Source: Eledone cirrhosa (lineage: Eukaryota). From it: 64,000 bases of DNA. The translations under genes and the position numbers were made by a program. Positions 2,440-62,788 of the stretch are shown here, in pieces. Each line of letters starts with the position of its first letter. Position 1 is the stretch's first letter. Under the pieces are notes generated by a model. The model did not search any database. It was not told the DNA's origin and saw only the letters and a list, made by a program, of their open reading frames with translations. Location of the stretch: NCBI GenBank assembly GCA_964016885.1, contig OZ024742.1, positions 323,082,001-323,146,000 on the forward strand, given 5' to 3'.

Positions 2440-2551
2440 ATTAGATTGGTAGATAGATAGGTTGACAGAACTTGCCATTGCTGAAGAACTGACTTCAAGG
2501 TTATGGTGAATTACATCGATCCCAGTATATAACAAGTATATATTTTTAGCT

Positions 2552-2957
2552 CTTCCATTTGAATTTAAGAGGCTTCAGTTTCCAGTCAAACTAAGTTTTG
2601 TTATTTCAATTAACAAATCTCAGGGTCAATCCCTCAAGGTAGTTGGTCTTGATCTCTCAACTACATGTTTCTCCCACGGTCAACTCTATGTTGGTTGCTC
2701 ACGAATTGGAAGCAGCAGTAATTTATTCATTTTAACACCAACAAAAAATTATACAATGAATATTGTTTACCCTGAGGGGCTTCAAGATTCACAGATTTTC
2801 ATTTCTAAATTCTATTATCATTACAATTTTGATATTTCTTTATAAAATATAGATATTTTGAAATAATTATGAGAAAAAATATATATCTTCATATTTATTG
2901 TTTACTAATCTGAATAAGAAGAGCGGTAACCCAGGCAACGCCAGGTCATTCAGCTAG
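2552..2957 (+). mobile_element. Helitron 3' fragment: PIF1-helicase C-terminus plus terminal hairpin and CTAG
   Basis: Frame from 2552 reads LPFEFKRLQFPVKLSFVISINKSQGQSLKVVGLDLSTTCFSHGQLYVGCSR (PIF1 motifs V/VI); ends CCCAGGCAACGCCAGG..CTAG|T. Confidence 0.9.
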
Positions 2958-3279
2958 TACATATATATAACCAACATAGTTATAGTATAACATTCGAAAA
3001 TATCTCTGCAAAATTTCGTTTAAAAAATATGCATTATTAAGAACATTTATGAGGAAACTAAATCAATAGTAGTGGTGGTAGTGGGAGCACAAGCTTGCAG
3101 TTATGTCCCCTTCTCTTGCGGCATATCAACCAGATCAGCGTTAGTATTGGCTGTGATATTTTGTAGCACAGCTGTCTATCTTACTAAGCAACTAACTCAC
3201 TAACCTATTTCTTGGTCATTCTCTTAAATCTGATGTAATCAAGATACAGATGGTGACATGACCTTACATCACTACGACT

Positions 3280-3690
3280 GCTGGGCTTCTGTGATTTGAT
3301 TTCCAGTTGTTCGAAACAACGGAACAGCCCGCTTGTTTAAATTAATGTGTAAGTGGTTAAGGATTACATCGAACACAATTCTCAGGAAGATTCAGCGTGA
3401 CATGGTTGGAATTTCATATTCACTTGAGCGTTCCACAGACACGTGTAACCTAAAAGTATTTCTCAGAAACAGTGCGCGACATGGTTGTTGAGCATTCCAC
3501 ACGTAACATAGTTCTCAGGGAGATTCAGCGTGACACAGTTCTTTGAATTACAGGTACAACTAATTTTTGTCAGCTGAGTGGTGGTACTGCGTGTCACAGC
3601 TGATAGATTCTCTGTCAGTTTCGACGATGAGCATTCAGTTATTCGATCAACTGAATATCCAACTCGTGAATTAACCTAGCTGAAAAAGCC
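3280..3690 (-). repeat. Degenerate SINE remnant with internal tandem duplications (TTCTCAGGGGAGATTCAGCGTGACA-like units)
   Basis: Repeated motif at about 3378, 3460 and 3512; related sequence at 17300-17430 and 43540-43815. Confidence 0.5.
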
Positions 3691-3789
3691 CCCAGACTAG
3701 ATGGTCATGGTAGGGATTCCTTATAATCACCTGTTCTGTTGTCCCTTTCCTTTATTTGATCGGTATGTAACAAAAATATGTGATTTAGA

Positions 3790-4033
3790 CTAGCTTCTGG
3801 TGTCTCAGGTTGATGGTCATTGGTGACGGGTCCTCCGTTGTGCAGCCCGTGTCCATGATGGCTCGTGACGGCATCCCGCCACCAGAACTTCCACTACGGC
3901 CAGAACCTCCACTTCCTTCATCGTTTGTTGATCGCTGTCAACTGCCATGGGCTTCTGTCGCTGCTAGCACTGCAACATTCGGCTCAGCGCTTGAGTCACT
4001 ACGCGGGCCTGTGCGAATAGCTCGCTGATGTTC
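3790..4033 (-). pseudogene. Possible LTR-retrotransposon aspartic protease remnant
   Basis: GC-rich island; reverse strand with one frameshift reads VVEVLV-GMPSRAIMDTGCT (D-T-G catalytic motif context). Confidence 0.35.
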
Positions 4034-4276
4034 ATATATATATATATATATATACAGTATTTACGTATCGAGAGAGAGAGAGAGAAAAAGGGGAGGATAG
4101 GTGATACATATAGTTATTTGCCAAGTAACGTATGCCAAAGGTGCTCGATACTAGTTCCGGCAGTATTAAATATTCGAAGTGTTAATATTTAGTGGGCTAG
4201 AGAGTTAGCAGAGCGTAAGCATGTGGGAAAGTAAGAAATCGGAGAATAGACCGTTAAAACATATTTATTTAAAACA

Positions 4277-18802: not shown

Positions 18803-19283
18803 TTAATAAAATCTTAAGATGATGATAATGATGCTGATGCTGATGGCGAAGATGATGGTGATGGTGATGATGAAGGTGATGATGAAGGTGATGATTATGG
18901 TGATGATGATGATGATGAGCATAGTTTTGTTACACTATCCACCTTTTCCCTTTTACACACCGTAGAATTTTCACCATCCCCTTCCTTCCTTTTAACTCAT
19001 TCATCTCACGAGCAGACTGACACACGGACGGACACGATTCGACATATATCTATCTATCTATCTATTTATCTGGGATGGACACGTGTTAAACTTGCTCGGT
19101 AAGTTTTGTTTAAATTTCCTTAGAAATTCGTCATTGTGAACTTTTAATTTTATACCAATTTGTAGAGGGACTGACAGGTCAAATTTTGATCTGGTCAGTC
19201 CTCCAAAATATCGTGCCCCTCAGGGCAAAAACATCCAAAATATCTTCGAAAATATTTTTGCAAAACAGTACATTTTTTTTTAA

Positions 19284-21132
19284 ATGGCCGAAGCACCTAC
19301 TTCTTTGCCAAAACAAGAAGATGGGAAGGGAAAGCCATGCCTACTTGACCAGCAGGTAGTAGCAGACATGGACAAAGAAAGGCCAACATCGCCTCAACAT
19401 CTAGCTGCTTGTAAGCAACTTAACACGCCTGACGTCACAAACGTCACATGTATCCACACACAGAAAGATATATATGTAGAAAACACTTCCTTTCGTAAAG
19501 AAATGGAAATTCATACAACAAAAAATGAAAATAACAGCCCACAACAGACACCAAAAAATACAGAAAATGAAAACTATCTATCTATCTATCCATCTACCAC
19601 CACACCAAACGAGAAAGACAACAACAATAAAAATGAAAACAACTCAAATGACGAGAAACAAATCAATACAAACACCAACAACGAAAACAAAATATCTTTT
19701 GCACAGACTTCTAAAATATCAGTCACATATGTGCTTGAAGATATATCAAATGCAAAAGAAATGCTTGAAAAGGCAAAAAAAATGTATCCTTTGGCGAAAA
19801 TGGATCGTTTTCTATCAATTCGCCCCCAGAACTAAAAAAACAGACGGAATTACGAACTGTTGTATTCCGTACAATTGACAACAAAACAAAAAAACCAGCA
19901 CAACCATCTCAAGCTGAAATTCAGTTAGTCCTGAAAGAGGCTATGAAAGACATTATTTTCATACAAAAGGATAAACTCTATGGGAGTTTATCCATATTGA
20001 TGAAAGACGAATTGGCGGCGAAAAAATACTCTGTGTCGCCAATTCGTTCCAGACATTACACATTTTTCCCCACCTACATGGGTCAAAAAACCCCAAAGAA
20101 TATGGATAACCACCATCACCCCAAACATAAACTACTAGTGGTTACTAACCGGTTTCCTCAACTTAGACGAGGACAACCTCATATCAATAGGGAAGGCACC
20201 CGGCGACGCGTTCAGTGGAACGAGCATTGAAGTTCTGACCCAAATAAGGCCAGAACGTATCGTCCAAATCCCTGAGCGCGTCATGCTGGATGACCGTACC
20301 CACCTCAACATTATTGTGGAGGGTAGGCGTCCCTCCTGTTACCTGTGTGGCAATAGAGGTCACTTGATGGCTGCCTGTCCCCATCTCACACAGAAAAAAA
20401 CATTGCTACCAACACCCCAACAACCAACACCAACACCAAAAACAACCACAACAACAACAACAAAAACCAACAACACCACCACAACAACAACATCAAACAC
20501 GTGAAAAAACAACACAGAACACTGTCCCCCCCTCCACACCGCAAACACTACCAGAAAACATACCCCTCCCACCCAACAAGGAAGACGAACCCCTTTCGTC
20601 GCAAGACGAAAAAGATCCCTTCCAAACAGTAAAAAGAAAGAAGAGGAGGCGCACCACAGACACACTTGTTAACATTAACCCTCCCCAAGAGAACACAAAC
20701 TATATACAAACCATCCCTCCCCGTCACACAACACTAACTGCTACGCAATATACATACATGAACACAGACAACAAAGAACTAATGAACACAATTTCGTCAA
20801 ACCCTTCGGTCCAAACTGAAGGGCCTAACTTTATAACTGCTGTGGGACTACCTCATTTACAAATGATTAAAGTCCCAATGAACTTATATAAAACGTTGAA
20901 AATAAATTTCACAGAGGACGTGCCCCCCCCCCCCCCCTGCGCTAAGCCAATCAACCGCGTCCTCCTAAAAAATGTCCCCACCCCCCACCCAGTCACCCAC
21001 TCAACCACAAACACCCTAACCCCACAACACACTGATGCCCCTACACTTCCACAAACCACCACCCCACCCAACAACCCATCCCCAACCAGCATGGAAATTG
21101 AGCGGCCCGTTTCCCGGGACGCAGAGAGGTAA
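19284..21132 (+). pseudogene. LINE ORF1 (frameshifted)
   Basis: ORF pieces 19284-19835, 19943-20230, 20283-20504 (CYLCGNRGHLMAAC), 20758-21132, colinear with copy 1 ORF1. Confidence 0.85.
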
Positions 21133-21156
21133 GTGCCTTTTCTCCTTACCACCAAC

Positions 21157-24100
21157 ATGGCTGTGCTGAGAGTAGGGTGTCTAAATGCGCGTGGCCTGGG
21201 CTCATCTTGGAAGCAAGCAATGCTTCTAAATGACCTCAAGTCACGATCTATAAATGTGATGGTTATCTGCGAGGCCCGGATCAACAGCATGCGACAGCTA
21301 GCCCCCACCTTTGACGACTTTGAGATGCACGCATCTCTCTGTCAGCCCGGAGGTGGGGGTGGGGTTGTCGTTCTGCTGCAAAAACATCTGGGTCTTGCCA
21401 CACAGATAGTTCACTTGGACCCAGGGGGTCGACTGGTGGTGCTAGGCCTTGGCAGTGTTGAAGGTGGAGCCTTTAGGCTGGTAGCCGCATATGCCCCTTT
21501 TGGGACAGAGCGGCCCGACTTTTTCCAGCGTCTGGAGTCTTTTCTAGGGACGTCCCGTTCCCTGCTTCTAGTGGGGTACTGGAATGGTATCCTGGATGCA
21601 CGTTGGGACTATGCAGGGGCATGTCTCGATAGAGAGGGGTGCAACAGCCTCAAGGGGTTACTCGGCCGATTTGACCTGGCCGATAGATTTCGACTAGATT
21701 TTCCGACGGTGCCAACCTGGTCTTGATCAAATCGCAGCGGATCATCTAGGTCGTACCTAGATAGGTTTTTAGTTGGAAATAAGGACGGACTTTTTAAGTT
21801 GTCCAGTAATGCTCATGGTTGGCTATTCAGACCACAAGTTGGTGACCTGCATGGTCAACCTTGATAGAACGCATAGACAGGGCCCCGGTTACTGGAAGCT
21901 GAACTTGTCCTTACCGGCAAGTAAAGCTTACAGGGACCGGATTAGTACGTTAGTTAAGGAGCGGTTGACTGGAGCGATCGTCAACAGCAGGTGGTGGGTA
22001 TCTCTAAAGAGAGAGATTAGATTAGTCTCGATAGAATTTAGTAAGGTTCTAGCTGCGGATAGGAATAGGAAGGAAAGGGAGCTGATAGATAGAGTAGAAG
22101 AGGCAATTAGAAGCGGCGACGTGGTCAGAGTGCTAGCGTCGAGAACGGCTTTGAGCCAGTTTTTCGACGTGAAGCACGAAGGCTGCGTTGTCCGAAGTAA
22201 AATACGTGCTCTAGGGAACGAGGGGACCAAAGCTGTTAGCTGGGCCCGCGTGACAGAAGCCAAGAGTGGAACTAAATCCACCATCCGGTCTTTGCGAGAC
22301 CAGGATGGACGGGCGATCCTTGAACCTAAGCAGATGTGTGAGGCCTTTCAAAAGCACTTTGCCCGATTGTTCGGAAGGGGCGGGGAGCCGGTTGGGATGT
22401 GGACTTCGGCCCATACCTCGACGGCCTGCCGCGTCTCTCGGACAGGGAGGCGAAGTTCTGCGAGGAGCCGATTTCAGCCGCTGAGATAGAGGACGTGCTG
22501 AGCCAATGCGGCAAACGCAAATCCCCGAGTCTCGATGATCTTCCATACGAACTATATCTAGCTATGCCGGACTTGTTCCCCGATCTCCTCGAGGCGGTCT
22601 ACTGGAACTGGCAACAGAACGGGAGAATTCCCTGTGCTGTGACCAAGGGCGTAGTCACGCTAGTGAGGAAGGACGAGAACAAGGGGGACGAAATAAGTAA
22701 CTTCAGGCCCATAACTCTGCTAAATACAGAGTTACAGATTTTGGCCAAGGTGCTAGCAAAGAGGTTGGCGCTTGTCGTGGGCAACTTGGTGGGAGATGCA
22801 CAGACATGTGCTATGCCGTCCAGGTCCATCCATGACAACCTCCACCTCATGCGATACATCATAGAGAGGGTTGGGAACGAACCCGGCTTTGGTGGGGCTC
22901 TGATCAACTTGGATCAATCTAAGGTGTTCGATAGAGTCGACCATGGTTACCTGGATGCGGTGCTAGCGGCGGCAGGCTTCGGACCCGTTTTCAGGGGCTG
23001 GATCACTGCTATGCACAGCAGCCGCATCTGCTCTAGAGTCAAGGTGAACGGCTACCTCTCGGAGCCGTTCGAAATCGCGCCGTCCATCCGACAAGGGTGC
23101 CCTCTCTCCTCCCTTCTGTATGTATTGACTCTCGAGCCACTACTGCGGAAGTTGGAGTTGTTGTAGGGCATCCCTTTGGAACCGGGATTGCGGAAAGCGG
23201 TGTCGGCCTACGCCGATGACGTGACAGTAATGGTGTCGACGGCCTCCGAAATCGGGGCGATCGACACCTTACTGGAGGAGTACGAAAGGTTCACAGGGGC
23301 TAAGCTGAACCGGGACAAGTCGATCGGTTTGCAACTCGGCACGTGGAGGGGCAAACCGATGTCCTCCGATGGCGTCGTCGGACGCTGGACGGAGGGCCCG
23401 GTGAAGTTGCTCGGAGTCTGGTTCGGACCAGACCTCCAGGTGGAGAAGAACTGGGCGGAGGTTACGAACAGGGTGTTTGCACTGACCCAGAAGTGGGCCA
23501 GTTGCAAACTATCCCTGAAAGGTCGGGTGGAGGTGGCGAACACCTATATAGCGTCCGTCATCTACTACCGCCTGACCGTCGTGCCTTGCCCAAGGGAAAC
23601 CCTCGCCAAGATGGAGCGCGCGCTCTTCCAATTCCTTTGGAAGAGGCGGGCTCCTTTGGTGAGGAGATCCATCTGCTGTCAACACCCTTCGAAAGGAGGG
23701 CTGGGGATGCCGTGGCTAATGATGCGTAAACACGCATTAAGGCTACGGCACCTCCACGTATTCCTCACCGGTCAACCGGTGTGGGCCTCGCTTGTGAGAC
23801 GAACCTTTCCCAGACTCGTCTCACTCACCGAGCTGCAATCCTGGGTCAAGCAAAGACCGAGAAAACTGGGCGCCTGGCACACTGAGTGTGCCCAGGCGCT
23901 CACCGTCCTCTGGCAGGCGGATCCGGTTATCAGTGGAGACTCCACCGCAACATTCTATAGAGGGCTGGTACGCAGCAGGTGCGACGACGCCCTCGGAGAA
24001 GCCCTAGACATGGAGGAAGACGAACTGGCCAGCCTGTTCGGTAGGACATTCAGCCCGGGACCTATGGACAACTTCCAGAAGTCCCTGGCCTGGCAGTGCT

Positions 24101-24591
24101 ACCGAGGGGCTCTACCCGTTCGAGAAAAGCTCTACAGACACGGGCACCCGGGTAGGGACCCCGCCAAAAAGATCTGTCCCAGATGCGTGTGCGACGAGGA
24201 AACCGTTGCACACGCATTGGTACACTGCTCGGGCGTAGCCGATCTGTGGGGCTATGTCGAACAACTGCTGTCAAGGGTGGGACCGATCCGGTTGACTACC
24301 GAGTCTATTGTAACGATCAAGCCGCCTCCCCCCTTCAAAAATGAAGGAGAGGCGGTTTTTCTGTGCGTAATAGCCATGGTGAAAGAGGTTGTATGGTGGA
24401 CGCGTCTGAAAGGACTGAGGTCAGGCACCTTTCTCTCTGGCCAACAACTGGTCCGTTTCTTCCGATATCATTTCGGAAGAAGGATCAGGATGGAAAGAGA
24501 GGTGCTCCACCCCAGTCGTTTTTATGAAAGGTGGGTGAAAGTGGCGAGAATGGCCCGTGTGAATGGGCCTTCTCTTTACATAAGCCTGTAG
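21157..24591 (+). pseudogene. LINE ORF2: APE endonuclease + reverse transcriptase + C-terminal CCHC, disrupted by two stops and about two frameshifts
   Basis: CLNARGL, YLDR, SDH (APE); FRPITLLN, LDQSKVFDRVDH, RQGCPLS, YADD (RT); CPRC...HALVHC. Confidence 0.93.
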
Positions 24592-24847
24592 GTGGAAAGG
24601 AGGAAGGAACGAGGGAGCACCCTCTCTCTGTGCTCCTGGGGAGAAGGGGTTGCACACTTTTTTCGGGGGGGTGTGTGTGACCCTCCCCCAACGCCCCCTC
24701 CCTATTGAGGACTTATTGTTAAGTCTATTGTTAATTTTATATTTGTTATTTATTTTCTTTACTCGCCTTTTCATGTAAACGCCCCCCATTGTACTTGTCC
24801 CACTTTTTGATGCCCTGGTGGCAAATAAAAAGAAACATATCTATTTC

Positions 24848-30899: not shown

Positions 30900-32645
30900 C
30901 CAAATTATTATTTCTACTAACAATAAAAACACAAATAACGAACGAATTTTGTATCATCACTACAGCTTGCATGTAGAGCAAAGTTACATACCACCTACAT
31001 GCTTGAAATGAAAAATAACTTGCATATACGAATAAAATAACTTGTGTATACGAACAGTACTGTTTATTGTCACAGCAAGCTCCAAACCGCTCAGGGGACG
31101 GGGCGGATTAAGCTTGCATAGGGCTGCCTGGCTGAAAATCTCCTCGGAGCTTTTGCGTAATATTTATAGTAGCAAAATACAAATAAAAATAATAATATTA
31201 ATAATTCCAAACAAACAAACACGGAAACATCAAAACCCACAAATGTAGCAACAGCACCAATAACCTTGTACGCTGTATGATGAGGTGCATATTATCAATA
31301 ACAAGTACAGAAGATACAAAGAAACGCTTTAGCTATGGTCATCATCAGGTCTGCTGACCCAGAGCTATACAATAGCATACACAAGAACAGAATAGTAAGT
31401 GAAGGAAATGAAACACCCTCAGACAATTTGAAAATCGGACGGAGTACTAAATGTTATTCTTAATAAACACTGCATTCAGAAGTACATCATCAGAAGAAAA
31501 TGCAGATGATATAAAAGAACGTTTTGGCAGAGGCCTGCTGACCTAGGACTGCCCAACAACAAACACAAAGGAATAGAATGGACAATAGGAGAAATTAAAC
31601 ACCTTTGAACAATCTGCATGTCGGACAGAGTGCCCAGTGTTGTTATCAACTAGGCATAGCACTTATCTATACGTCTCATCGTGTCCGAGAATACCATACT
31701 ATTATGTTCCTTTGCCAAATCTGGAAGATGGAATCTTGCATGAAGAAAGGGCCCTGTGATGATGTGAAATGTCCAATGCAACGGATATTACTGACTGTTT
31801 TCCACAACAATGCTTTCGCCATCTTGTCCACGAGGTACAGCTAAGGAAAAGTGAAAATTTTTGCAAGGAAAAAAGGAAAGAAAAACGTCATAATATTGGA
31901 TAGGAAAAAGTCACAATTTGCGTTGGGGAAAATGCCCCAATTCAGGCTTGGAAAATAAAGTCAATTTAGGTTAGGAAAATGTCAAAGGAAAAAACAACCG
32001 CACATTTCGTTTAGATACTAGAGTAATTAAACAAAGATATTTTAACACCAACAAGAAACAATCGTTCTTGTTTGTAAGTCTATTGCGCATGCATGTAAGT
32101 TTGCTTATATCATTATGTGTTTATCAAGCAATGTATGAGTGTATTTATCTGAAAGGGACTCTTGTGTGTGTGTGTGTGTGTGTATCTGTGTGAATGTGTG
32201 TGTGTAAATTTAATTGTTTATGCTGTTATTTTCCTGTACCATTGTGTATGTGTTGTAATCTTTGTGTATGTTTGTTTTACTGTTCCACGCATGTGTGCAT
32301 AGATATGTCATTAATATGTGTCTGTAAATGTACGCGAGTGATATTGTATGTGCGAGTATGTGAATGATACGATGGACGGGTTCCAAGTGAACCTTAAAGA
32401 TAAGGGAGTTAAGGTAATTTGATATACGGAATTTTAAAAGAATGGCTTAAGGTTTATATAAGACATCTCCCTCTCTCTTTCTCTTCCTTTCTTTCACATT
32501 TTGTGCGTATACAATGTTAGGACATAAGTACTATGTATGTATGTATGTATGTATGTATGTATGTATGTATGTATGTATGCATGCATGTATGTATGTATGT
32601 ATGTATGTATGTATGTATGTATGTATGTATGTATGTATGTATGCA

Positions 32646-33488
32646 TGTTATCTCATTCTCTTAATTTTGAGTATATTTTTTTGACCAGCCACCTTCCTGG
32701 TGGCAAGGTTGTAAAAGAAAAGAAATTGTCATCCCTTGAATCGCAAGAATGTTTTACAAATTTTGAAGGTGCCAGCTATCGCAGCCATTTGTAGACTATG
32801 AATTAGGGAGCTGCGCTCTTTGCCCGCAAATCCAAGTTCAGTCATACTTTGGTCCAAGCGGGTTGGTATATAACCCGTAGCTCCAATAATGATGGGTATG
32901 AAGCTAAAGGTGTATCTTGGATACTGGATTTGTAAACTCCTCTTCAATGGTCCGTAGATGTCCTCCTTCTCCTGTATTTTTCTGACAACGTTTACATCAA
33001 GAGGGTAGCTGATCTCCACAACAGAACACGTTTTCAATGTGTGGTCCCAAACAACAATATCAGGCCGGTTGTGCTTTAATTTGGTGGCAGTTTTTATTTT
33101 CAGGTTTCACCAGTATTCCTTAGTGCCATCTGTCTCAATATATTCTTCCTCGTTTGTTTTTAATTTTGTTTGTGCGTTCCAGATGGTTCTAGCTATCCCA
33201 TCGTGTCTCGTGGGGAGGTAGTAGCGAGATGACATTCTTTCGCAGCCGGCAACAATGTGGCTTACATCATCGATCTTTGTTTCACATAGCCTGCATTTAT
33301 TGTCAGCTGATGGCCCTCCTCTTTTGTGCAGCAGATATTTGGTAGGGAGTTCTTGGTCCTGTATTGCATAGAGATATCCCTCAAGGTGTGATGTCATAAA
33401 CTTGTCGGAACTCCATGCCAGGCTTTTTGAGTGGTTTATCCCCTCAATGGTCTGTGTTTTACGTCTCAAGTATCCATGCACAACTTTT
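32646..33488 (-). mobile_element. R4/Dong-like RLE retrotransposon copy A (5'-truncated)
   Basis: HGY, IQDQEL.TK, CRLC...SHIVAGC, RHD, PDI, VEISYP, IGATG restriction-like endonuclease motifs; flanked by (TATG)n. Confidence 0.85.
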
Positions 33489-33543
33489 ATGTATGTATGT
33501 ATGTATGTATGTATGTATGTATGTATGTATGTATGTATGTATG

Positions 33544-33970
33544 TTCTTTCGGTTTTATAATTTCACAAATTTTTGCCAATAGAGAGAGAGAGTCGGTTTC
33601 TAACATAGTTACAAGACTCTCTCATTGGAATTTATACAACATCAACTAGATATATATATATGCATGTCTGCATGCATGCATGTGTAGGTATGGATGTTAT
33701 TGTATGTGTGGATATGTATGTTTTGATTTGTATGTGTGCATGTGCATACGCTTTGTATCTGTACATATATATATGAAGTTATTAGATGCAAAATTTTTGG
33801 AGTGTTTTACATATTTTTACTGTTCCATTAATGGATTGTACTTGTAATTTCCTAACTAGTTGTGTTCTTTCTGTTCCTGTGAAGCCCAGCTTCTCAAGAT
33901 TTGTATTGAGGCAGTTACTAACATGTCCCAGTGCCCCAATAATCACTGGAATAAATCTGAAGGTATAATG
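33544..33970 (-). mobile_element. R4/Dong-like copy B (3' end, second family)
   Basis: Near-identical to 33986-34390; (TATG)n flanks. Confidence 0.85.
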
Positions 33971-33985
33971 AATGTATGTATGTAT

Positions 33986-34991
33986 ATTCTTCTGGTTTTA
34001 TAATTTCACATTTTTTTCCCCAATAAAGAGAGAGTCGGTTTCTAACATAGACACAAGACTCTCTCATTGGAATTTACACAACATCAACTAGATATATATA
34101 TATGCATGTCTGCATGCATGCATGTGTAGATATGGATGTTATTGTATGTGTGGATGTGTATGTTTTGAGTTGTATGTGTGCATGTGTATATGCAGTTATT
34201 AGATGCAAAATCTTTGGAATGTTTTACATATTTTTACTGTTCCATTAATGGATTGTACTTGTAATTTCCTAACTAGTTGTGTTCTTTCTGTTCCTGTGAA
34301 GCCTAGCTTCTCAAGATTTGTATTGAGGCAGTTACTAACATACCCCAGTGCCCCAATAATCACAGGCATAAATCTGAAGCTGTAATCAGGGTGGAGTATC
34401 TGCAGATTTCTTATCAGTTCTGCATAAATATTCACCTTTTCGCTAATCTTTGATATTATATTGGCATCTGCTGGGCAGCTAATTTCCACTACTGTGCATG
34501 CTTTCTTCACTCTGTCCCATATTATAATATCTGGTCTGTTATCCCTGCATTTTATTGTAGTTTTTACTGGAACATTCCACCAGTACTCTTTCATATTATG
34601 TACATGGATGTCTTCCACATTGCTGTAGCTTTTAATGTGTTTATTATCGGGGCTATCTTTTTATATGAACTGCATTGTACAGTGTTTTGGCCACTACATC
34701 ATGCCTCATAGGTAGATAGTACGCGATGACATCTTTGGACGGCTGCTGATGACATGGGTGATATCCTCGATGTTAGTTCTGCAGAGTCTGCACTTGTTAT
34801 CACATCTAGGTGTTTTGCCTGCATCCCTGTCTCTTTTGTGAATCAGGTATTTCGTGTTAATCTCCTGTTCTTGGATTGCAAAAGCGTATCCTTCAAAGTG
34901 GGAGCCAATATAGCGGTTGTTGGTCCTTATCTATATTACTCTCACTCTGGAGCTTCCTGGCAACATATCCATGCATGATTTTTTGCTGATA

Positions 34992-34992
<1 letters not shown>
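33986..34992 (-). mobile_element. R4/Dong-like copy C
   Basis: EYWWN..NRPDII.WD....VVEISCP...EK...Y RLE domain; CRLC...H upstream; (TATG)n flanks. Confidence 0.88.
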
Positions 34993-35022
<30 letters not shown>

Positions 35023-35092
35023 TGTATGTATGTATGTATGTATGTATGTATGTATGTATGTATGTATGTATGTATGTATGTATGTATGTATG

Positions 35093-36235
35093 TTCTGGTT
35101 TTTATAAATGTTTACCAATAGAGAGAGAGCCGGTTTCTAACGTAGACACAAGACTCTTTCAATGGAATGTAGACACCAACTAGGTAAATATGTATGTATG
35201 TCTGCATGTGCGCAAGCGCAGATATGGGTGTTATTGCATGTGTGGATCTGTATGTTTTGAGTTATATCTGTACACGTGCATATGTTTTGCATCTATACAT
35301 TTGTATATGCAGTTATTACATGCAGAATTTTGGGAATGTTTTACATATTTTTATAGTTCCATTATAGATTGTACATGTAACTTCGTAACTAGTCGTGCTC
35401 TTTCTGGTTCTATGAACCCAAGCATCTCAAGATTTGTACTGAAGCAGTTACTAACATATCCCAGAGCCCCAATGATCGCAGGTATAAATCCGAAGGCATA
35501 ATCTTTAATATTATAATCGCATCTGCTAGGCAGCTGATCTCAACTACTGTCCATGCCTTCTTCTCCCTGTCCCATATCATTATATCTGGTCTGTTAAGCT
35601 TGCATTTTACTGGGGTTTTCACTGGAACATTCCACCAGTACTCTTTCATATTATATATATATGTCTTCCACATTGCTGTAACTTTTACGGATTGCACCGT
35701 ACAGTGTTTTGACCACTATATCATGCCTCATGGGTAGATAGTACCGTGATTACATCTTTGGACAGCTGCTTATGATCTGGATGACATCTTCGATGTTAAT
35801 TTTGCAGAGTCTGCATTTGTTGTCACATCTAAGTGTTTTGCATGCATCCCTATCTCTTTTGTGAATCAGGTATTTTGTATTAATTTCCCGTTCTTGGATT
35901 TCAAAAGCATATCCTTCATAATTGGGAGCCAATATAGTGGTTATTGGTCCAAGGTAGACTATTTTGCTTATCTATATTACTCTCACTTTGGAACCTCCTG
36001 GCAACATATCCATACATGATTTTTTGCTAAGCATGCAGCTTTTCATCCAAGGATTCACTGCGGTACTGCAGTGCAATTTCCTTGGGTGTGAGTTTTTGAT
36101 TATCATGCAGGGAGTATTTCTCAAGGGCTCCTTCCCAACTCTCACGTAGACAGACTTGCTCAATATGTGGGCTCCAATGTTTGGTGGTTCGTAGATGTTG
36201 TCAGAGGGGTATGATGCGACACTCAAATGCTGTCT
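35093..36235 (-). mobile_element. R4/Dong-like copy D (more diverged)
   Basis: KCRLCKINIEDV.QIISSC, NRPDIMIWD; same 3'UTR. Confidence 0.85.
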
Positions 36236-36492
36236 TCAAGGAAACGCTGCTTAAATACGCGATTCGATCGCTGTCCTCATGAATTCGTTCGGAAAAAATG
36301 GTCTATTAATTTAATTTAATTCTTTTTTTCGACTTTTCATTTAACCCTTGACTCCCTGTGAAACACAAGTTGCCTACCTGTTTTTTTTATAGTTACCTCC
36401 CTTTTCATTTACAATATTTAAGGTATTTGTCTAATTGTAGGATAATTTCGGGATTACATATATATATCTATATATTTAGAGAGAGAGGGGGG

Positions 36493-40196: not shown

Positions 40197-40411
40197 ATAT
40201 TTGGGGAGGGTCATATTTGCGTAATATTGCCAGAATTAATAACAGAACACACTCACTGTTTGGTTGGTTTTCGCTTCTCGCTGTCTTTTATATATATATA
40301 TATCTGCGATCTAACTTACTCGGTCCTCAATGTTGCCATTGACTGACCGGCGGTCAAAAATAATACAGATACAATATAGACAAACACATATATATATAGT
40401 TTACATCCAGC

Positions 40412-41218
40412 ATGTGCGACCCAACAGAAATGGAAGGACACATCCAACACTTCATCAACCGCATGCAGTTCTCTGGCTACAACCAAAGAGACAGAGTCAG
40501 AGTATACGAAGGAGCCATGGAAAAGTATAAGACCCTCATAGAACTGGACATGAAAGGAATTTGCCCACTATACAGGAGCAAATCATGGAATAGCTTAGAT
40601 AGGGCTAGACATAAGATGGGGAAGGCCACATCATGGTACGACAACCAGAGATATCAGAGTGTCATGTTTGTGGACGCCACCCCTGGAGGGAAATTAGCTA
40701 ACCAGTGTAGAAAGGCCCTGAGAAAGACCCACTTAAAAATAAAGGTGGTAGAAAAGCCAGGAACCACCATAAAATCCCTGATCAGCAAAACCTACCCTTT
40801 TAAGAAAACCCACTGTACCAATAGGAAATGTATCATATGTAAGGTGAACCCCCGGATAAACTGTAAAACTAGAAACGTAGTCTATAGCATAAGATGTACA
40901 GAGGGTACTTGCAGAAACACGACAACAACATACATAGGTGAGACAGCTCGTAGCATAGGTGAAAGGATAGACCAACACTGGGGGGAACTAAAAGGACGAA
41001 AAAACGGGTCAGTACTATACGAACATGCTAGACAACAACATGACGGTAACATAGACAACATAGAAATTAGAATAATATCTAAACATAGGAATGACCCAGC
41101 AGATAGGCAAATCAGAGAGGCCAGTGAAATAGAAATTAGAAGACCAAAGCTAAACAGAAAGAATGAGTGGAACAACAACAACACCCAAACAAACAACACT
41201 GACCTAAGAGAAGTATAA
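40412..41218 (+). CDS. PLE ORF C-terminal part (RT thumb, Zn linker, GIY-YIG endonuclease)
   Basis: Open 268 aa; strongly similar to 46006-46800 minus. Confidence 0.85.
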   Translation: MCDPTEMEGHIQHFINRMQFSGYNQRDRVRVYEGAMEKYKTLIELDMKGICPLYRSKSWNSLDRARHKMGKATSWYDNQRYQSVMFVDATPGGKLANQCRKALRKTHLKIKVVEKPGTTIKSLISKTYPFKKTHCTNRKCIICKVNPRINCKTRNVVYSIRCTEGTCRNTTTTYIGETARSIGERIDQHWGELKGRKNGSVLYEHARQQHDGNIDNIEIRIISKHRNDPADRQIREASEIEIRRPKLNRKNEWNNNNTQTNNTDLREV

Positions 41219-46005: not shown

Positions 46006-49000
46006 TTAATTGTAAGTTGTGATGTTGCTGTTCCAGTCATGTTTTCTATTTAATTTTGGTTGTAATTCATTTATGTTTATTGCCTCTGTGATTTGTCTAA
46101 ACATTGCGTCTTTTCTGTGTGTAGATTCTATTTTTATTTCTATGTTCTCTAATTTACCCTTATGTTCTATTTTAGCATGTTGGTAGAGTACAGATGATTC
46201 TTTACTATCTTGAAGGTCTCGCCAGTGTTCATTTATCCGTTCCCCTATACTACGAGCTGTCTCACCTATGTACACTATATTTTTATCTCTACATTGTCCT
46301 TCAGTACATCTTATGCTATATACTACATTTCTAGTTTTACAGTTAATATGGGGGCTTAATTTACAGATTATACATTTCTTATCTATACAGGGAGGTCTTT
46401 GAAAAGGGTATGTCTTGCTAATAAGTGTTTTTATGGAGGTACCTGGTCTTTCTACTATCTTAATATTGAGTTTATGTTTATCTAGGGCCCTTCTAAATTT
46501 GTAAGCTAATTCACCTCTAGGGGTTGTATCGATGAACATTACACTCTGGTATGTATTGCTATCATACCATGAGTTTATTCTATTAGCCTTATTCCTAGTT
46601 CTTTCTATTCTATTCCAAAATTTGCTCCTATACAAGGAGCAGGTGCCATTTGTGTCATTATTTCCCATTCTTCCCATTTGGTTCTGGCTCCTCTATACAC
46701 TCTGATTTTAACTCTCTGATTGTAACCAGAGAACTGCATACGGTGGATGAAGTGTTGTATGTGTCTCTCTAGTTCTTCGGGGTTGCACATGCGGGACACG
46801 TTTCTCATCACCCGTACCAAATCCGCACTCAGTATGTTGATTTTGGTATGGTCCGAAACAGCTGAGTTTCGGTGGATCAGATATTTGGAAGTCATGGGTT
46901 TGGTATAATGGGAATGGAGGATTTGTTTTTTGTTATTAATGGTATCTAACCAGAGCTCTGTGTCTAGTACAGGTAATCGATGGTTGGGGTGTTTGCTTGG
47001 GTAGTCTATAGTAACTCTAATACTCTGGTGGATGGAGTTAGCTATTTGCTGGATGCTTTCCATTGTGTTTTTCTCTAATTCCTGACTGTTCTCTAGTGGG
47101 GGTGTTTTAACTACGATGTTTATATCATCAACGTAGCGGGAGTACATTATCAGGGTTAAGGGGTCTTCTAATTGTTCTTTAAGTTTAAGTTTAAGTCTAC
47201 TGTCCCGCCATACCATGAATAGGTTAGCTATGTCGCCTGCAATGCTAACACCAATGGCTGCTCCCTCCTCTTGGGCATATGTTTTTCCATTAAATTTGAA
47301 CATATGTTCCTTAAGGGTTTATTTTATGCTGGCCGTCACCGCATGCAATCATTTTCTTTAGTTCATCGTGGTTTTCGGGGGTCCGTATGGCTCTGGTCCA
47401 CCTGTTCCATCTATCTGTGTGAGTTTTCTTGGCCATTGAGGTAATGGTAGGTGGTCTGCTTCTTGCTGGTCTTATAGGGCACAGGTTGCTAAGGTCATAT
47501 GTGTCTAGATAATTATTACTATAGGTAAGTTTAAGTAGGATTCCCAGCTCACTGGTATCAATCCCACGGAATTCAACATTGCTCTCACTGATCATTTCTA
47601 CGCATTTCTCCACAGCAAAATCCACGTCAATAGATGGATACAGGGACACAACATCCATACTACCTATTATGCAGTTTGTTAGGTCCCTAGATCGGTTACC
47701 CTCGCCGATTCTGCTGAGGAGGTCCTCCGTGCTGTCACATAGATCTGGGGACATTTCAATGATGGGGCGTATGATCAGGGAGAGGAAGTAGGACAGTCTG
47801 TAGTTACTAGCAATGTTAGCTCCACAGACTGGCCGTGTTGGTGGTCCTGTGACAGGGTCACTGCTCGTTTTGTGGTCTTTTCGAAGCCCATACAACGCTG
47901 GCACGTCATTGTTCCAGGTCTGGAAGTTTTTGGCAGTCCTTTTGTTGGGCTGCATTATATTTGTCCACATCATCATATGGGCATTGAGGGCTTTTTCTCT
48001 ATCCTCATGCTCTTGTGGTGTTACTTCTCTTGTGTTAGTGATGTGGGGTTGCATTGCCTGGATGTAGTTTGGCAGACTGTCATCCGACATTCTGCCAGAC
48101 TTGTCTGTTGGAAAGCATGCTATCTCTCCATTACGCGAGCGCTGCATGAGCTTACGCAAGCCATTTGCAGATTTTTCTCCCAGTTGCTGGGCCTCTATTC
48201 TATTATGTTTCTTGCTATACTGTTCTATAATATTTCTAAGTTTAGATCTAGCTATACTAAATTGTGCTTCTGTTTGTTCATCGACATGCGACGGCAATTG
48301 CGTGCGTTTGTTAAAAGCTAAAGTCGTGGCGTGGACTCGTCGCAGATCGAACGACTTATCGGAGGGATTATAAAAAGTAGAGTTCCAGGCTGCTGCTTTA
48401 TGTGTACTAGTGCTATTGTTATTGTTAGTTGTGTTGTTTCTATTTCTATTTCCACCAACAGCCTCATGGTTGTTTCTATGTCTCTCATTATTACTCCTGT
48501 CTCTTTCCTCTGGCTCATTGTTATTATCTACTCTATTTTGTGTGTCTGTGTGTTCGTCTTGGTTATTTTCTCTGTCCATAGTCTCCCTTCTCCTTTCAAT
48601 CCTATTACCTTCCCTTATTTCTGAGCTACTGTCATTATCTGTTTTCTGTGTCTGTGTGTTTGTTAAGATTGTGGTGGTGAGAAGCATTGAATGTGTGTGT
48701 GTTGTTGTTATTGATGTGTGCTGTTGTTGATGTGTGTTGTTGTTGTTGTCTCCGTGTATGTTATTATTGTTGTTTGTGTCTGCGTGTCTGTTGTTGTTGT
48801 TTCTGAGTATGTTATTATTGTTGATGTGTGTGTTGTTGTTATTGTTGTTTGTGTCTGTGTGTCTGTTGTTGTTGGGATGTGTGTTGTATATGTGTGTGTG
48901 TGTGCGTATGTTGTTACTTTTGTTTTTGTTTTTGAGGCTCCAACGTAATTTTGTAAATGATTTTTATATTTCTGACAAGCATTTAATCATATTTACCTTA

Positions 49001-50842: not shown

Positions 50843-50905
<63 letters not shown>

Positions 50906-50911
50906 GGAAAT

Positions 50912-50979
<68 letters not shown>

Positions 50980-50980
<1 letters not shown>

Positions 50981-51283
50981 TAGGAAATTACAAGTACAAT
51001 CCATTAATGGAACAGTAAAAATATGTAAAACATTCCAAAAATGTTGCATCTAATAACTGCATATACACATGTACAGATGCAAAGCATATACACATGCACA
51101 CATACAACTCAAAACATACACATCCACACATACAATAACATCCATATCTACATATGCATGCATACATACATTGTTGATGTGTAAATCCCAATGAGAGAGT
51201 CTTGTGTCTATGTTAGAAACCGACTCTCTCTTTATTGGGAAAACATTTGTGAAATTATAAAACCAGAAGAACATACATACATT
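50980..51283 (+). mobile_element. R4/Dong-like 3' fragment copy E ending AAGAA|CATACATAC
   Basis: Reverse complement of the 33544-33853 / 33986-34273 family. Confidence 0.85.
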
Positions 51284-51683
51284 CATATAATAATGAAAGA
51301 ATAAGAAAATACAAGGGTAAATAATTAATTAATCCATTATTTTACGATTACTTCGTGGAGCAAATTTATTGATGAACAGACTAATGGGTGGCAGTTATGT
51401 AACTTTATATCATCAGCCTTGAAAAAACATATTTATTTAGCTGTGTATCCTCATATATATACAAATATCATCATCATCATTATCACCGTTTAGCATCCAT
51501 TTTTCCATGCTTCTATGGGTTAGACAGGTTGTCCACACTAGAAGGCAAGTCTGGTCAGAGTTGGCCATGTTGTACCTTCCAAGGACTATAAATTTGGCCA
51601 GGTATTTTACAGCTGGATGCCCTTCCTAACACCAACCACTATATATATATGTGTGTGTGTGTGTGTTTGTATGTATATATATA

Positions 51684-59929: not shown

Positions 59930-60080
59930 AGAAACTGGCCAATCACGAGCGAGTTCAGATATCGGTCGATGACGTCATAACTCTTAACTGATCATTTCAT
60001 TTCGGCAAACTAACGTGTCCTCTCAGTGAGAGAATTTTAGCTGAACTGAAGTGATCAGTTAAGAGTTATTACGTCATTCA
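59930..60080 (+). promoter_or_regulatory. Putative transposase promoter: CCAAT box and CRE inside an inverted repeat
   Basis: GGCCAATCA at about 59937; TGACGTCA at 59970; arms 59969-59999 / 60047-60077. Confidence 0.4.
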
Positions 60081-60151
60081 AAGTAAGAGAAAACCCGATG
60101 GCGTGTTTTGGGAGCATAATTATCACGGTATATCTTATAACCCCATATCTC

Positions 60152-62788
60152 ATGGCCCCAAAACGTCCTGTGAATATTGCTGATGCAGATGGTAAGGCCA
60201 AACGCATGAGGAAGAGCCTGACTTTGGAGATAAAGCTGGACATTTTGAAAAGGAAGGAACAGGGGCAAGGTACGTCCACCATAAGTCGTAACTTAGGCCT
60301 AGCGCAGTCTACAGTCTGGACTGTTTTAAAAAATAGTGAGGCTGTCAAAAAGGCTGGGGAGAATGCTACAAGTCTACAGAGTAAATTGTTGACCAAACAT
60401 TGTGAGCCGATTATGGATAGGATGGAAAGGTTGCTCAAAATTTGGATCGACGACCAAAATCGTCAAAATATGCCTGTCTTTAAATGTAATCAGTGAGAAA
60501 GCATTGTCCATTATTGACAGGCTCGGGACTGAAATGGGGGTGGAGGACTTTGTATTCAAGGCAAGCAAAGGCTGGTTTGATAAGTTCAAACGACGTTCGA
60601 GTCTTCACAACATAAATGTTACAGGTGAGGCTGCCAGTTCCGACAAAAAGAGTGCTGAAAAATTCAAGGCAGAGTTAGAGAAATGAATTGCAGAGAAGGG
60701 GTACAGCAAAAAACAGGTTATTAATTATGATGAAACAGGACTTTATTGGAAAAAGATGACCAGTAATAATTATATTGACAAGGAGGAGAAAAGTGCGAAG
60801 GGGTACAAAGCCTCAAAGGACCGCGTTACTCTGTTACTTGGAGGGAATGCAGAAGGAGATTTAAAGCTAAAGCTACTCATTATCTACCATTCTGAAACTC
60901 CAAGAGCACTCAAGGGGTTACTTAAGCAATACCTACCAGTGATATGGAAGTCTAATAAGAAGGCATGGCTGATCACTTCAATTCACCAGGATTTTTTCAC
61001 CTCATATCTGTCACCAACCCTTAAGGAATATACATTAGCTAACAACATTGCCAACCATTTTCTGCTATTAGTGGACAACGCCCCCAGCCACCCACGGGCA
61101 ATGGAAGACTGGTCAGAAAATATTGAGGTTTTGTTTCTCCCCCCAAACACCACAGCTCTCATTCAGCCGATGGATCAAACAGTCATCATCATCATCATCG
61201 TTTAAACGTCCATCTGCCACGCTTGCATGGGTTTGGACGGGAGGTTTCCCACTTGAGGCAAGATTTGTTGTCGTATAGGACTGTATAGGACTGTCTGGCA
61301 GGTTTTCTACGGCTGGATGCCCTTCCTAACACCAACCACGTTTACAGTGTGGACTGGGAGGTTTTTACCGTGTTACCTACACAGCCACATTACAGCGTGT
61401 ATTGTGTGTTTTTTTGTCGTGACACCTACACGACGTCATTTGTTTCAGACTGGATGTTGTGGTACCAACATAACTTCACATTTAAGGGGGTGGTGTGGAT
61501 GGGGTGGGGGTAGTGGGACGGGGGGGGGGTTATTTTGTTAGAGGTGCCTACTGACTGTAGGTTTCGCTTTGTACTTAGGCAAGGCGGGTCTTCTGTATGA
61601 CTGTGTAGCGCCAAAGATCTCGGTCCAGTGACATTGTCTTGGAGAGGTGTAAGTGTGTGAGGTCGGAATTTATCAAGTCGTCCCAGGTTTTTCTGGGTCT
61701 GCCTACTCCGTGGCTACCGTCTATTTTTATCACCCTGCACTTTTTTATACAGCCGTCGTCTTTCATGCGCATCACGTGACCGTACCAACGTAGTCTTCTC
61801 TCGAGTAAACAACATCTGATCCCTCTTATTCCTAATTTCTCCCTTAGTTCGTTTATGCTTTGCCGTTCACGTATATTACTATTACACATCCAGCGGAGCA
61901 TGCAAGCTTCGTTTATCTCCAGTCTGCGTATATCCTCTGCACACAATGCCCAGGTCTCACTGCCATGTAGCATTGCTGTTCGTATGCAAGCATCATACAG
62001 CCTGCCTTTCATTTTTAGAGAGGACCCTTTAGCGGCCAATAGCGGCCAAAACATTTAAGGCATACTACCAGCGGAGAACCATGCAGCAGCTGATAAAGGG
62101 CACAGATGGGCCTGACAAGCCCACGATCAGGGAATGGTGGAAATTGTACAACATCAAGCACGGCTTAGACAACATCAAGGCATCTTGGAAAGAAGTGAAG
62201 CAGTCTGCCATGAACTTGGCCTGGAAGAAATTATGGCCAGCATGTGTGAATGACTTCCAAGGCTTTGCTGAGGACATTGGTGCGATAAAAAAAGATATTG
62301 TAAATCTCTGCCATAGAGCTGGCTTGGATGGTGTTAATGATGATGATGTGCAAGACCTTTTGGAAAGCCACGCTGAACCACTCTCCAATGATGAACTCAT
62401 AGAACTAGACAAAGCGATACAGGAGACAGAAAAAGAAGAAGAGGAGGAAGAAGAACTTGTGCGTGGCTTGGACATAGAAACTCTAAGAGAATGTCTCGGG
62501 AGTATCGAAACAATCTTAGAAACCCTGAAGGAGCGTGACCTCAACCCTGCTAGGAGCAGCAAAGTGGCTCAAGACATTGAGAAAAGCGTCAAGATTTACC
62601 AAGAAATGTATGAAGCCAAAAGAAACACCGTCAAACAGTCCTCCATCTACTCTTTCTTCAAGCCAATCACACCTGCCAACCGTGCTAGAGCTGGCCCTTC
62701 AACATCCACTGCAGTCAACGAGTTTGTTGGTTTTGAGCCTCCCACATCACCCTCATCTTCCCCTACCAACTCAGCCCAAGATGAGTAA
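60152..62788 (+). pseudogene. Tigger transposase (HTH_psq, CENP-B-type HTH, DD32D), one frameshift, one stop, split by RTE insertion
   Basis: MAPKR..RKSLTLEIKLDIL, FKASKGWFDKFKRR, NYDETGLYWK, VDNAPSHP-32aa-PMDQ. Confidence 0.92.
61188..62047 (-). mobile_element. RTE LINE 3' fragment inserted in Tigger transposase
   Basis: ORF 61575-62054 KGRLYDACIRTAMLHGSETW...RRLRWYGHV; (GAT)n tail; removal restores VI|KTFKAYY in frame. Confidence 0.93.

What the first reader, a model, noticed from the sequence alone, without database searches (positions are those of the whole stretch)
32532..36235. Same-strand stack of R4/Dong-like RLE retrotransposons inserted in phase into a (CATA)n microsatellite
Seen: four 5'-truncated elements from two distinct families (A versus B/C/D) lie head-to-tail on the minus strand, each separated by (TATG)n. 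Every 3' junction has the same register (..GATAA|CATG CATA, ..AAGAA|CATA, ..AAGAA|TATACATA, ..CAGAA|CATA), as does the dispersed copy at 50980-51283. Known: R4-clade elements carry a restriction-like endonuclease, and some (Dong) are microsatellite-specific. Inference: these are (CATA)n-specific retrotransposons that repeatedly re-target the same tract. They would be candidate sequence-specific RLE/RT enzymes with a tetranucleotide target.
Basis: partly seen in the sequence, partly recalled or inferred. Interest (0 to 1): 0.75.

Follow-up and report, generated by a model that had tools for sequence, protein, structure and literature searches.

The report
Retrotransposons that target CATA microsatellites
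Four broken copies of R4/Dong-like jumping genes are stacked in one CATA repeat, and across this probably octopus genome their relatives mostly have that repeat on both sides and face the same way, likely because their own enzyme cuts it, which would be a different target from the TAA repeat published for Dong.

Summary
The stack is real: four 5'-truncated non-LTR retrotransposons of two families lie head-to-tail on the minus strand, and all 3' ends share one register. CATA is a target, not just a tail. It flanks the 5' junction, on the same strand, of 44 of 50 distinct young truncated family-A copies and 25 of 36 family-C copies. Two control LINE families score 0 of 15 and 0 of 12; background is 2.6%. 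A copy's two flanks share locus-specific imperfect units (p=0.0005), so tracts pre-existed. Family A is young: 8 of 20 long loci hold a complete ~1169-aa ORF with a Myb-like N-terminus, RT, CCHC and a restriction-like endonuclease, folding like R2. Different ages of the four copies point to serial insertion. Corrections: the outermost copy and the dispersed copy lack 5' CATA, one spacer is only ~4 units, and the fixed 3' register does not prove enzyme specificity. Not shown: tree placement against named R4/Dong sequences, empty alleles, cleavage. Published Dong targets are (TAA)n. An RTE and its SINE share the tracts on the opposite strand. This scan reported the same system three times on other DNA of this genome.

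The parts
35093..36235 (-). E1: oldest, degraded 5'-truncated family-C element (reference positions 2849 to 3' end); no CATA at its 5' junction
   Evidence: about 12% mismatch to nearest fetched copy
34993..35092 (-). (CATA)25 tract between E1 and E2
33987..34991 (-). E2: 5'-truncated family-C element (reference 3073-4106), CCHC and endonuclease region plus 3' UTR
   Evidence: 3.0-3.4% mismatch to nearest fetched copies
33970..33986 (-). short CATA spacer, about 4 units
33544..33969 (-). E3: short 5'-truncated family-C element (reference about 3700-4106)
   Evidence: about 7% mismatch to nearest fetched copies
33488..33543 (-). (CATA)14 tract between E3 and E4
32648..33488 (-). E4: 5'-truncated family-A element (reference 3179-4025), CCHC and endonuclease region with a stop codon, plus 3' UTR
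   Evidence: 2.6% mismatch to nearest fetched copies
32532..32647 (-). (CATA) tract of about 29 units, slightly imperfect, closing the stack
50979..51287 (+). E5: dispersed family-C 3' end with CATA 3' register but (TA)n(TG)n 5' flank
36230..36460 (-). fragment of an unrelated old dispersed repeat fused to the 5' end of E1

Best explanation
The stack is four separate, 5'-truncated insertions of two R4/Dong-like retrotransposon families that sit in (CATA)n tracts in one orientation, likely because their protein recognises and nicks the TATG strand of a pre-existing tract and primes reverse transcription there. Shown: anatomy, same-strand CATA on both flanks, fixed 3' register, free 5' phase with microhomology, different ages, intact ORFs elsewhere. 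Inferred by analogy with R2: a Myb-like N-terminal domain and the PD-(D/E)xK endonuclease pick the site; the nick lies at TATG^T or one base further; the cDNA joins the upstream repeat through 1-4 nt of microhomology. Each insertion leaves repeat on both sides, so the site stays open to the next element and stacks grow.
For: 5' CATA (2 or more units within 30 nt, same strand): A 44 of 50 and C 25 of 36 distinct young truncated copies; 19 of 23 A copies with no library element upstream. Full-length young copies: A 8 of 8, C 8 of 9; opposite-strand repeat at 1 of 65 young A 5' junctions; background 2.6%. Controls: a young RTE family 0 of 15; Tx1 0 of 12. Own-flank sharing of imperfect 8-mers in 65 A copies: 119 against 44+/-13 in 2000 permutations, p=0.0005; in 47 C copies 51 against 23+/-9, p=0.006. 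3' end followed directly by CATA in 60 of 69 A and 43 of 49 C copies, but the perfect run is only 0-2 units in 33 of 69 A copies, so there is no fixed tail. 5' junctions use all four phases, with microhomology in 18 of 23 pure-repeat junctions against 30% expected. Protein motifs C980/C983/H992/C997, RH 1009-1010, PD 1059-1060, K1091, Y1095 are 100% conserved in 73 aligned sequences, with no N-terminal CxxC. Model pLDDT 87.9; top seven fold matches are R2 proteins. Raw reads of another sample show a truncated 5' end preceded by CATA (447 reads, probably one locus), and contigs of a second organism show the same 3' register.
Against: E1 and E5, two of the five copies in the window, lack 5' CATA. 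Older copies (<90% identity) carry it less often: C 16 of 31, A 2 of 4. 6 of 50 A and 11 of 36 C young truncated copies miss the criterion; on inspection 5 C misses look like internal deletions, 2 A misses have CATA behind a short element-derived piece and 1 has an inverted tract. The C flank test was not significant with 6-mers (p=0.16). The perfect run is longer at A's 5' side than at its 3' side (median 55 vs 22 nt, 42 vs 15 of 60 copies, p=0.00016), which a random nick in a pure tract does not predict. An RTE and a Tx1 family also sit in repeats that match their own tails, so tail-target annealing may contribute. All copies are best-scoring hits, biased to young elements.
Confidence: 0.8

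Rival explanations
1. The endonuclease is relaxed, and specificity comes from a read-through (CAUA)n RNA tail annealing to nicked TATG strands.
For: A fixed 3' register follows from annealing. Three unrelated LINE groups here have flanks matching their tails: Dong-like CATA; an RTE with TATG at 13 of 18 young 5' junctions; Tx1 with CTAT at 8 of 12.
Against: Many A copies leave perfect CATA after 0-2 units (33 of 69). Another young RTE family shows no CATA or TATG at 0 of 15 5' junctions. Sequence-specific integration is the rule for this endonuclease class (PMC4640811, passages).
Confidence: 0.12
2. The element lands at short CATA-like sites and builds most of the upstream tract itself, by slippage or template jumping onto (CAUA)n RNA at the 5' junction.
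For: 5' perfect runs exceed 3' runs and are uncorrelated with them in family A (rho 0.09), while the SINE's two runs are correlated (rho 0.66).
Against: Locus-specific imperfect units are shared by both flanks (for example L054, L080, L162, L188). Family C shows no such asymmetry (12 copies, p=0.31). A nick near the downstream end of a long tract explains the asymmetry too.
Confidence: 0.06
3. CATA is only an element-encoded tail and the stack arose in one template-jumping event or by tandem duplication.
For: Head-to-tail order. Tandem duplicated Dong pairs exist elsewhere (L043-L044).
Against: The four copies differ in age (about 12, 3, 7 and 2.6% mismatch) and E2/E3 are 88% identical. Only 7 of 44 A copies with 5' CATA have a Dong upstream.
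Confidence: 0.02

Closest known systems
Dong (R4 clade): Bombyx Dong, DongAg, snail DongBg, ostracod Dong
   Same: Single ORF with RT and restriction-like endonuclease, no N-terminal zinc finger, diverged Myb/SANT N-terminus, insertion into a microsatellite (PMC7998251, passages; PMC3812793, passages).
   Different: [quoted passage not shown] No HDV-like ribozyme was found by Rfam or a rough descriptor, whereas Bombyx Dong has one (PMC3774820, passages). The families fall in a clade apart from the insect relatives.
Octopus 'Dong-R4' repeat class
   Same: Five recently active Dong-R4 families with 1129 insertions in O. vulgaris (PMC13282606, passages); a full-length Dong in O. bimaculoides (PMC9115989, passages).
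   Different: No target is described: 'CATA' and 'target' occur 0 times in PMC13282606, 'target site' 0 times in PMC9115989, 'CATA' 0 times in PMC8967140. Identity with those families was not tested.
Waldo (ACAY-targeting elements)
   Same: Target class ACAY includes ACAT (PMC3812793, passage).
   Different: APE endonuclease; R1 clade by the title of the cited paper and by recall. A shared target would be convergence.
R2 (Bombyx, Taeniopygia, Platysternon)
   Same: Best sequence and fold matches among solved structures; RH, PD-(D/E) and K..Y motifs as described for R2Bm (PMC4838377, passages).
   Different: R2 has N-terminal zinc fingers and targets 28S rDNA; identity in the fold alignments is only 16-20%.

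Membership tests
RLE-type non-LTR retrotransposon | Single ORF with RT followed by CCHC and PD-(D/E)xK endonuclease, no APE | tested here: met
RLE-type non-LTR retrotransposon | 5'-truncated copies with fixed 3' ends | tested here: met
R4/Dong clade | No N-terminal zinc finger | tested here: met
   no CxxC in residues 1-400
R4/Dong clade | Diverged Myb/SANT domain near the N-terminus | tested here: inconclusive
   Three-helix domain, pLDDT 89. Best matches are mostly Myb-type (TRF1 Z 6.1, rmsd 3.7, 64 aligned; Zeste Z 6.0; NgTRF Z 5.5), but Z is under 8 and Foldseek found nothing at E<=0.001.
R4/Dong clade | RT phylogeny groups with named R4, Dong or Rex6 | tested here: inconclusive
   No named reference among hits. 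In a quick tree of 47 rows, A and C lie in one 27-row clade (SH-aLRT 100) with Argonauta proteins, apart from insect relatives.
Dong | Insertion into a microsatellite with repeat on both flanks | tested here: met
Dong | Target is (TAA)n | tested here: not met
   flanks are (CATA)n
Dong | HDV-like ribozyme at the 5' end | tested here: inconclusive
   No Rfam ribozyme match in L048 or L084; a home-made descriptor without positive control gave 0 hits
Dong | Sequence-specific cleavage by the element's protein | not testable with these tools
   needs biochemistry
Waldo | APE endonuclease | tested here: not met
   C-terminal restriction-like endonuclease instead

The most novel reading that the evidence does not exclude
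An active tetranucleotide-specific R4-type lineage, conserved across two families only 51% identical, both targets and lengthens (CATA)n tracts by adding repeat at its 5' junction. It shares those tracts with an RTE/SINE pair on the opposite strand while a Tx1 family takes (CTAT)n, so retrotransposons would partition and help build the microsatellite load of octopod genomes.
Probability: 0.2. Interest if true: 0.75.

Novelty: new variant of a known kind. Interest (0 to 1): 0.48.

Why it matters
Microsatellite targeting by Dong is known only for (TAA)n in the papers seen. Near-identical, intact natural copies with a 4-nt target give a tractable system to ask how a zinc-finger-less RLE element chooses its site, and whether protein or RNA tail sets specificity. 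It also suggests where the many active 'Dong-R4' insertions of octopus land, and why split-read callers may miss them (inference).

Tried and rejected
In-genome empty-site search by collinear flanks: 40 of 104 copies had matches; those visible in the cut output were other stacks in CATA tracts, uninformative. No RNA holder listed. First 'control' RTE (L034) rejected as a neutral control because it sits in the same repeat on the other strand; a second RTE family was used instead. Ribozyme searches gave nothing. ESM Atlas gave only unnamed RT clusters. A weak Pfam hit of E4 to TcdB_toxin_midC (E 0.047, below cut-off) is taken as chance. The careful tree did not finish; the quick tree was used. 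A target-site duplication length for A was not determined, because pure repeats hide it. The idea that element S is the 5' end of family C or a Dong-dependent SINE was rejected: it shares its 3' end with the RTE when read as reverse complement. Three papers were not held (PMC309301, PMC4400214, PMC3312299).

Full report
Setting. The window is G000:C3:323082001-323146000 in a 3.0-Gb assembly. The microsatellite load and the nearest named relative (Argonauta hians, 65% identity) suggest an octopod; this is inference.

Observation. On the minus strand lie E1 (36235-35093), (CATA)25, E2 (34991-33987), a spacer of about 4 units, E3 (33969-33544), (CATA)14, E4 (33488-32648) and about 29 CATA units. 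E1-E3 and the plus-strand copy at 50979-51287 match one reference (family C, natural copy L037:3683-7788, 4106 bp); E4 matches another (family A, L084:3746-7770, 4025 bp). Mismatch to the nearest fetched copy is about 12% (E1), 3.0-3.4% (E2), 7% (E3) and 2.6% (E4), so these are separate insertions over time. E1's 5' end has no CATA: it fuses through AGACAG to the inside of an old repeat whose remainder is not in the window, most simply a later deletion (inference). The dispersed copy's 5' flank is (TA)n(TG)n.

Copies elsewhere. Own-genome searches gave 2831 (C) and 3172 (A) first-look candidates, 40 scored each; these are not copy numbers. I pooled loci L001-L250, all best-scoring hits and therefore biased to young copies, and kept copies with an intact 3' end and both flanks. 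Criterion: two or more tandem CATA units within 30 nt of the junction. Young A copies: 59 of 65 at the 5' side, 61 of 65 at the 3' side, 1 of 65 in the opposite orientation at the 5' side; young C copies 34 of 47 and 43 of 47; old C copies 16 of 31 at the 5' side; background 2.6%. After keeping one copy per truncation point and per 3' flank, and requiring 200 nt of upstream flank: A 44 of 50, C 25 of 36. Of the 50 A copies, 7 have a Dong upstream, 20 have the RTE or its SINE (18 with CATA), and 23 have no library element (19 with CATA). A young RTE family had CATA or TATG at 0 of 15 visible 5' junctions among 30 loci, and Tx1 copies had CATA at 0 of 12. Since truncation points are scattered along the element, the 5' repeat cannot be element-encoded.

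Did the tract pre-exist? The two flanks of one copy share imperfect 8-mers far more than permuted pairs (A 119 vs 44+/-13, p=0.0005; C 51 vs 23+/-9, p=0.006; with 6-mers A p=0.0005, C p=0.16). Loci such as L054, L080, L162 and L188 show the same compound unit on both sides. Direct empty-site tests were uninformative. One result does not fit a random nick in a pure tract: in 60 A copies of at least 95% identity the perfect run is longer upstream (median 55 nt) than downstream (22 nt), p=0.00016, and the two are uncorrelated; C (12 copies) shows no asymmetry; the SINE's runs are correlated. Either A nicks near the downstream end of long tracts, or it adds repeat at its 5' junction.

Junction geometry. 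The 3' end is followed directly by CATA in 60 of 69 A and 43 of 49 C copies, and the perfect run ranges from 0 to 21 units in A. The terminal A of the element makes the nick ambiguous by one base. Among 54 truncated A junctions refined by exact match, 23 ended in pure repeat; these use all four phases and 18 show 1-4 nt of microhomology, against 30% expected. A fixed 3' and a free 5' register fit target-primed reverse transcription, but the fixed register alone cannot separate enzyme specificity from tail annealing.

Protein. Of 20 long A loci (12 chosen because they extended beyond 1.5 kb), 9 hold stop-free frames of 1160-1175 codons and 8 start at the same methionine (1164-1170 aa); neighbouring pairs are 98.0-99.8% identical. 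Pfam finds RVT_1 (E 9.5e-25) and zf-RVT below cut-off. In an alignment of 73 sequences the CCHC, RH, PD, K1091 and Y1095 residues are invariant and there is no N-terminal CxxC; these are the motifs mapped for R2Bm (PMC4838377, passages). The model (pLDDT 87.9) matches R2 structures best, then human L1. Residues about 20-75 form three helices whose best matches are mostly Myb-type domains at Z 5-6, below a firm threshold. No intact family-C ORF was seen in 20 long loci (longest C-derived frames 662 and 691 aa). In a quick tree, A and C share a supported clade of mostly unnamed proteins, separate from insect relatives; no named R4, Dong or Rex6 was available.

Neighbours. 45 of 61 young A and 37 of 43 young C copies have another library element within 250 bp. 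A 608-bp element, read as reverse complement, shares a 33-nt 3' stem-loop region with an RTE that has a 1232-codon open frame. That RTE has TATG at 13 of 18 young 5' junctions, so it occupies the same repeat in the opposite orientation. The Tx1 family of this window has CTAT at 8 of 12 5' junctions.

Literature. Seen as passages only: PMC7998251 (R4/Dong anatomy; target (TAA)n in most insects, molluscs and cnidarians), PMC3812793 (Dong TAA, Waldo ACAY), PMC4640811, PMC3774820 (Dong ribozyme), PMC3636483, PMC4838377, PMC13282606, PMC8967140 and PMC9115989 (octopus Dong-R4, no target given), PMC3124438 and PMC5389967 (nothing relevant). Seven full-text searches listed no paper whose title, abstract start or read passages report a CATA target for an R4-type element. 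Kojima and Fujiwara 2004, Repbase reports and most subscription papers were not seen, and no supplements were opened, so prior description there is possible.

Earlier scan notes. After my junction analyses, one search returned three unreviewed notes on other pieces of this genome with the same reading. They are not independent support.

Verdict. Real and well supported as orientation-specific insertion into (CATA)n. It works like Dong but is not filed as a plain Dong member, because the (TAA)n target is not met and tree placement is open. New variant of a known kind; interest 0.48.

Noticed in passing
L034:1-4030 and L191-L220: RTE family with a 1232-codon open frame; 13 of 18 young truncated copies have (TATG)n at the 5' junction, the same repeat as the Dong-like elements but on the opposite strand.
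   Followed up: partly
L048:4234-4841 and L131-L160: Young 608-bp non-autonomous element that shares its 3' end with that RTE when read as reverse complement; it sits in CATA/TA-rich tracts and some copies show short apparent target duplications.
   Followed up: partly
window about 19100-24844 (+) and L221-L250: L1/Tx1-like element with a (CTAT)n tail; 8 of 12 copies also have (CTAT)n at the 5' junction, suggesting a further microsatellite-targeting family.
   Followed up: partly
family A copies, L051-L100 and L161-L190: Perfect CATA run is longer upstream (median 55 nt) than downstream (22 nt) of the element; unexplained.
   Followed up: partly
L043-L044 (G000:C28:61.40-61.41 Mb): Tandem array of a repeated C+A unit, which looks like a local duplication of a stack.
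   Followed up: no
window 40400-41218 (+) and 46006-48963 (-): Two related Penelope-like RT/GIY-YIG-type fragments (weak RVT_1 hit; class assignment from recall).
   Followed up: no
window 60050-62788 (+): Tigger/pogo-like DDE_1 transposase fragments interrupted by a young RTE at about 61.2-62.05 kb.
   Followed up: no
window 2510-2845 (+): Helitron-like helicase C-terminal fragment (weak UvrD_C_2 hit).
   Followed up: no
window 50900-50990 (+): The first 14 or so bases of the dispersed copy appear twice, separated by (TA)n(TG)n.
   Followed up: no
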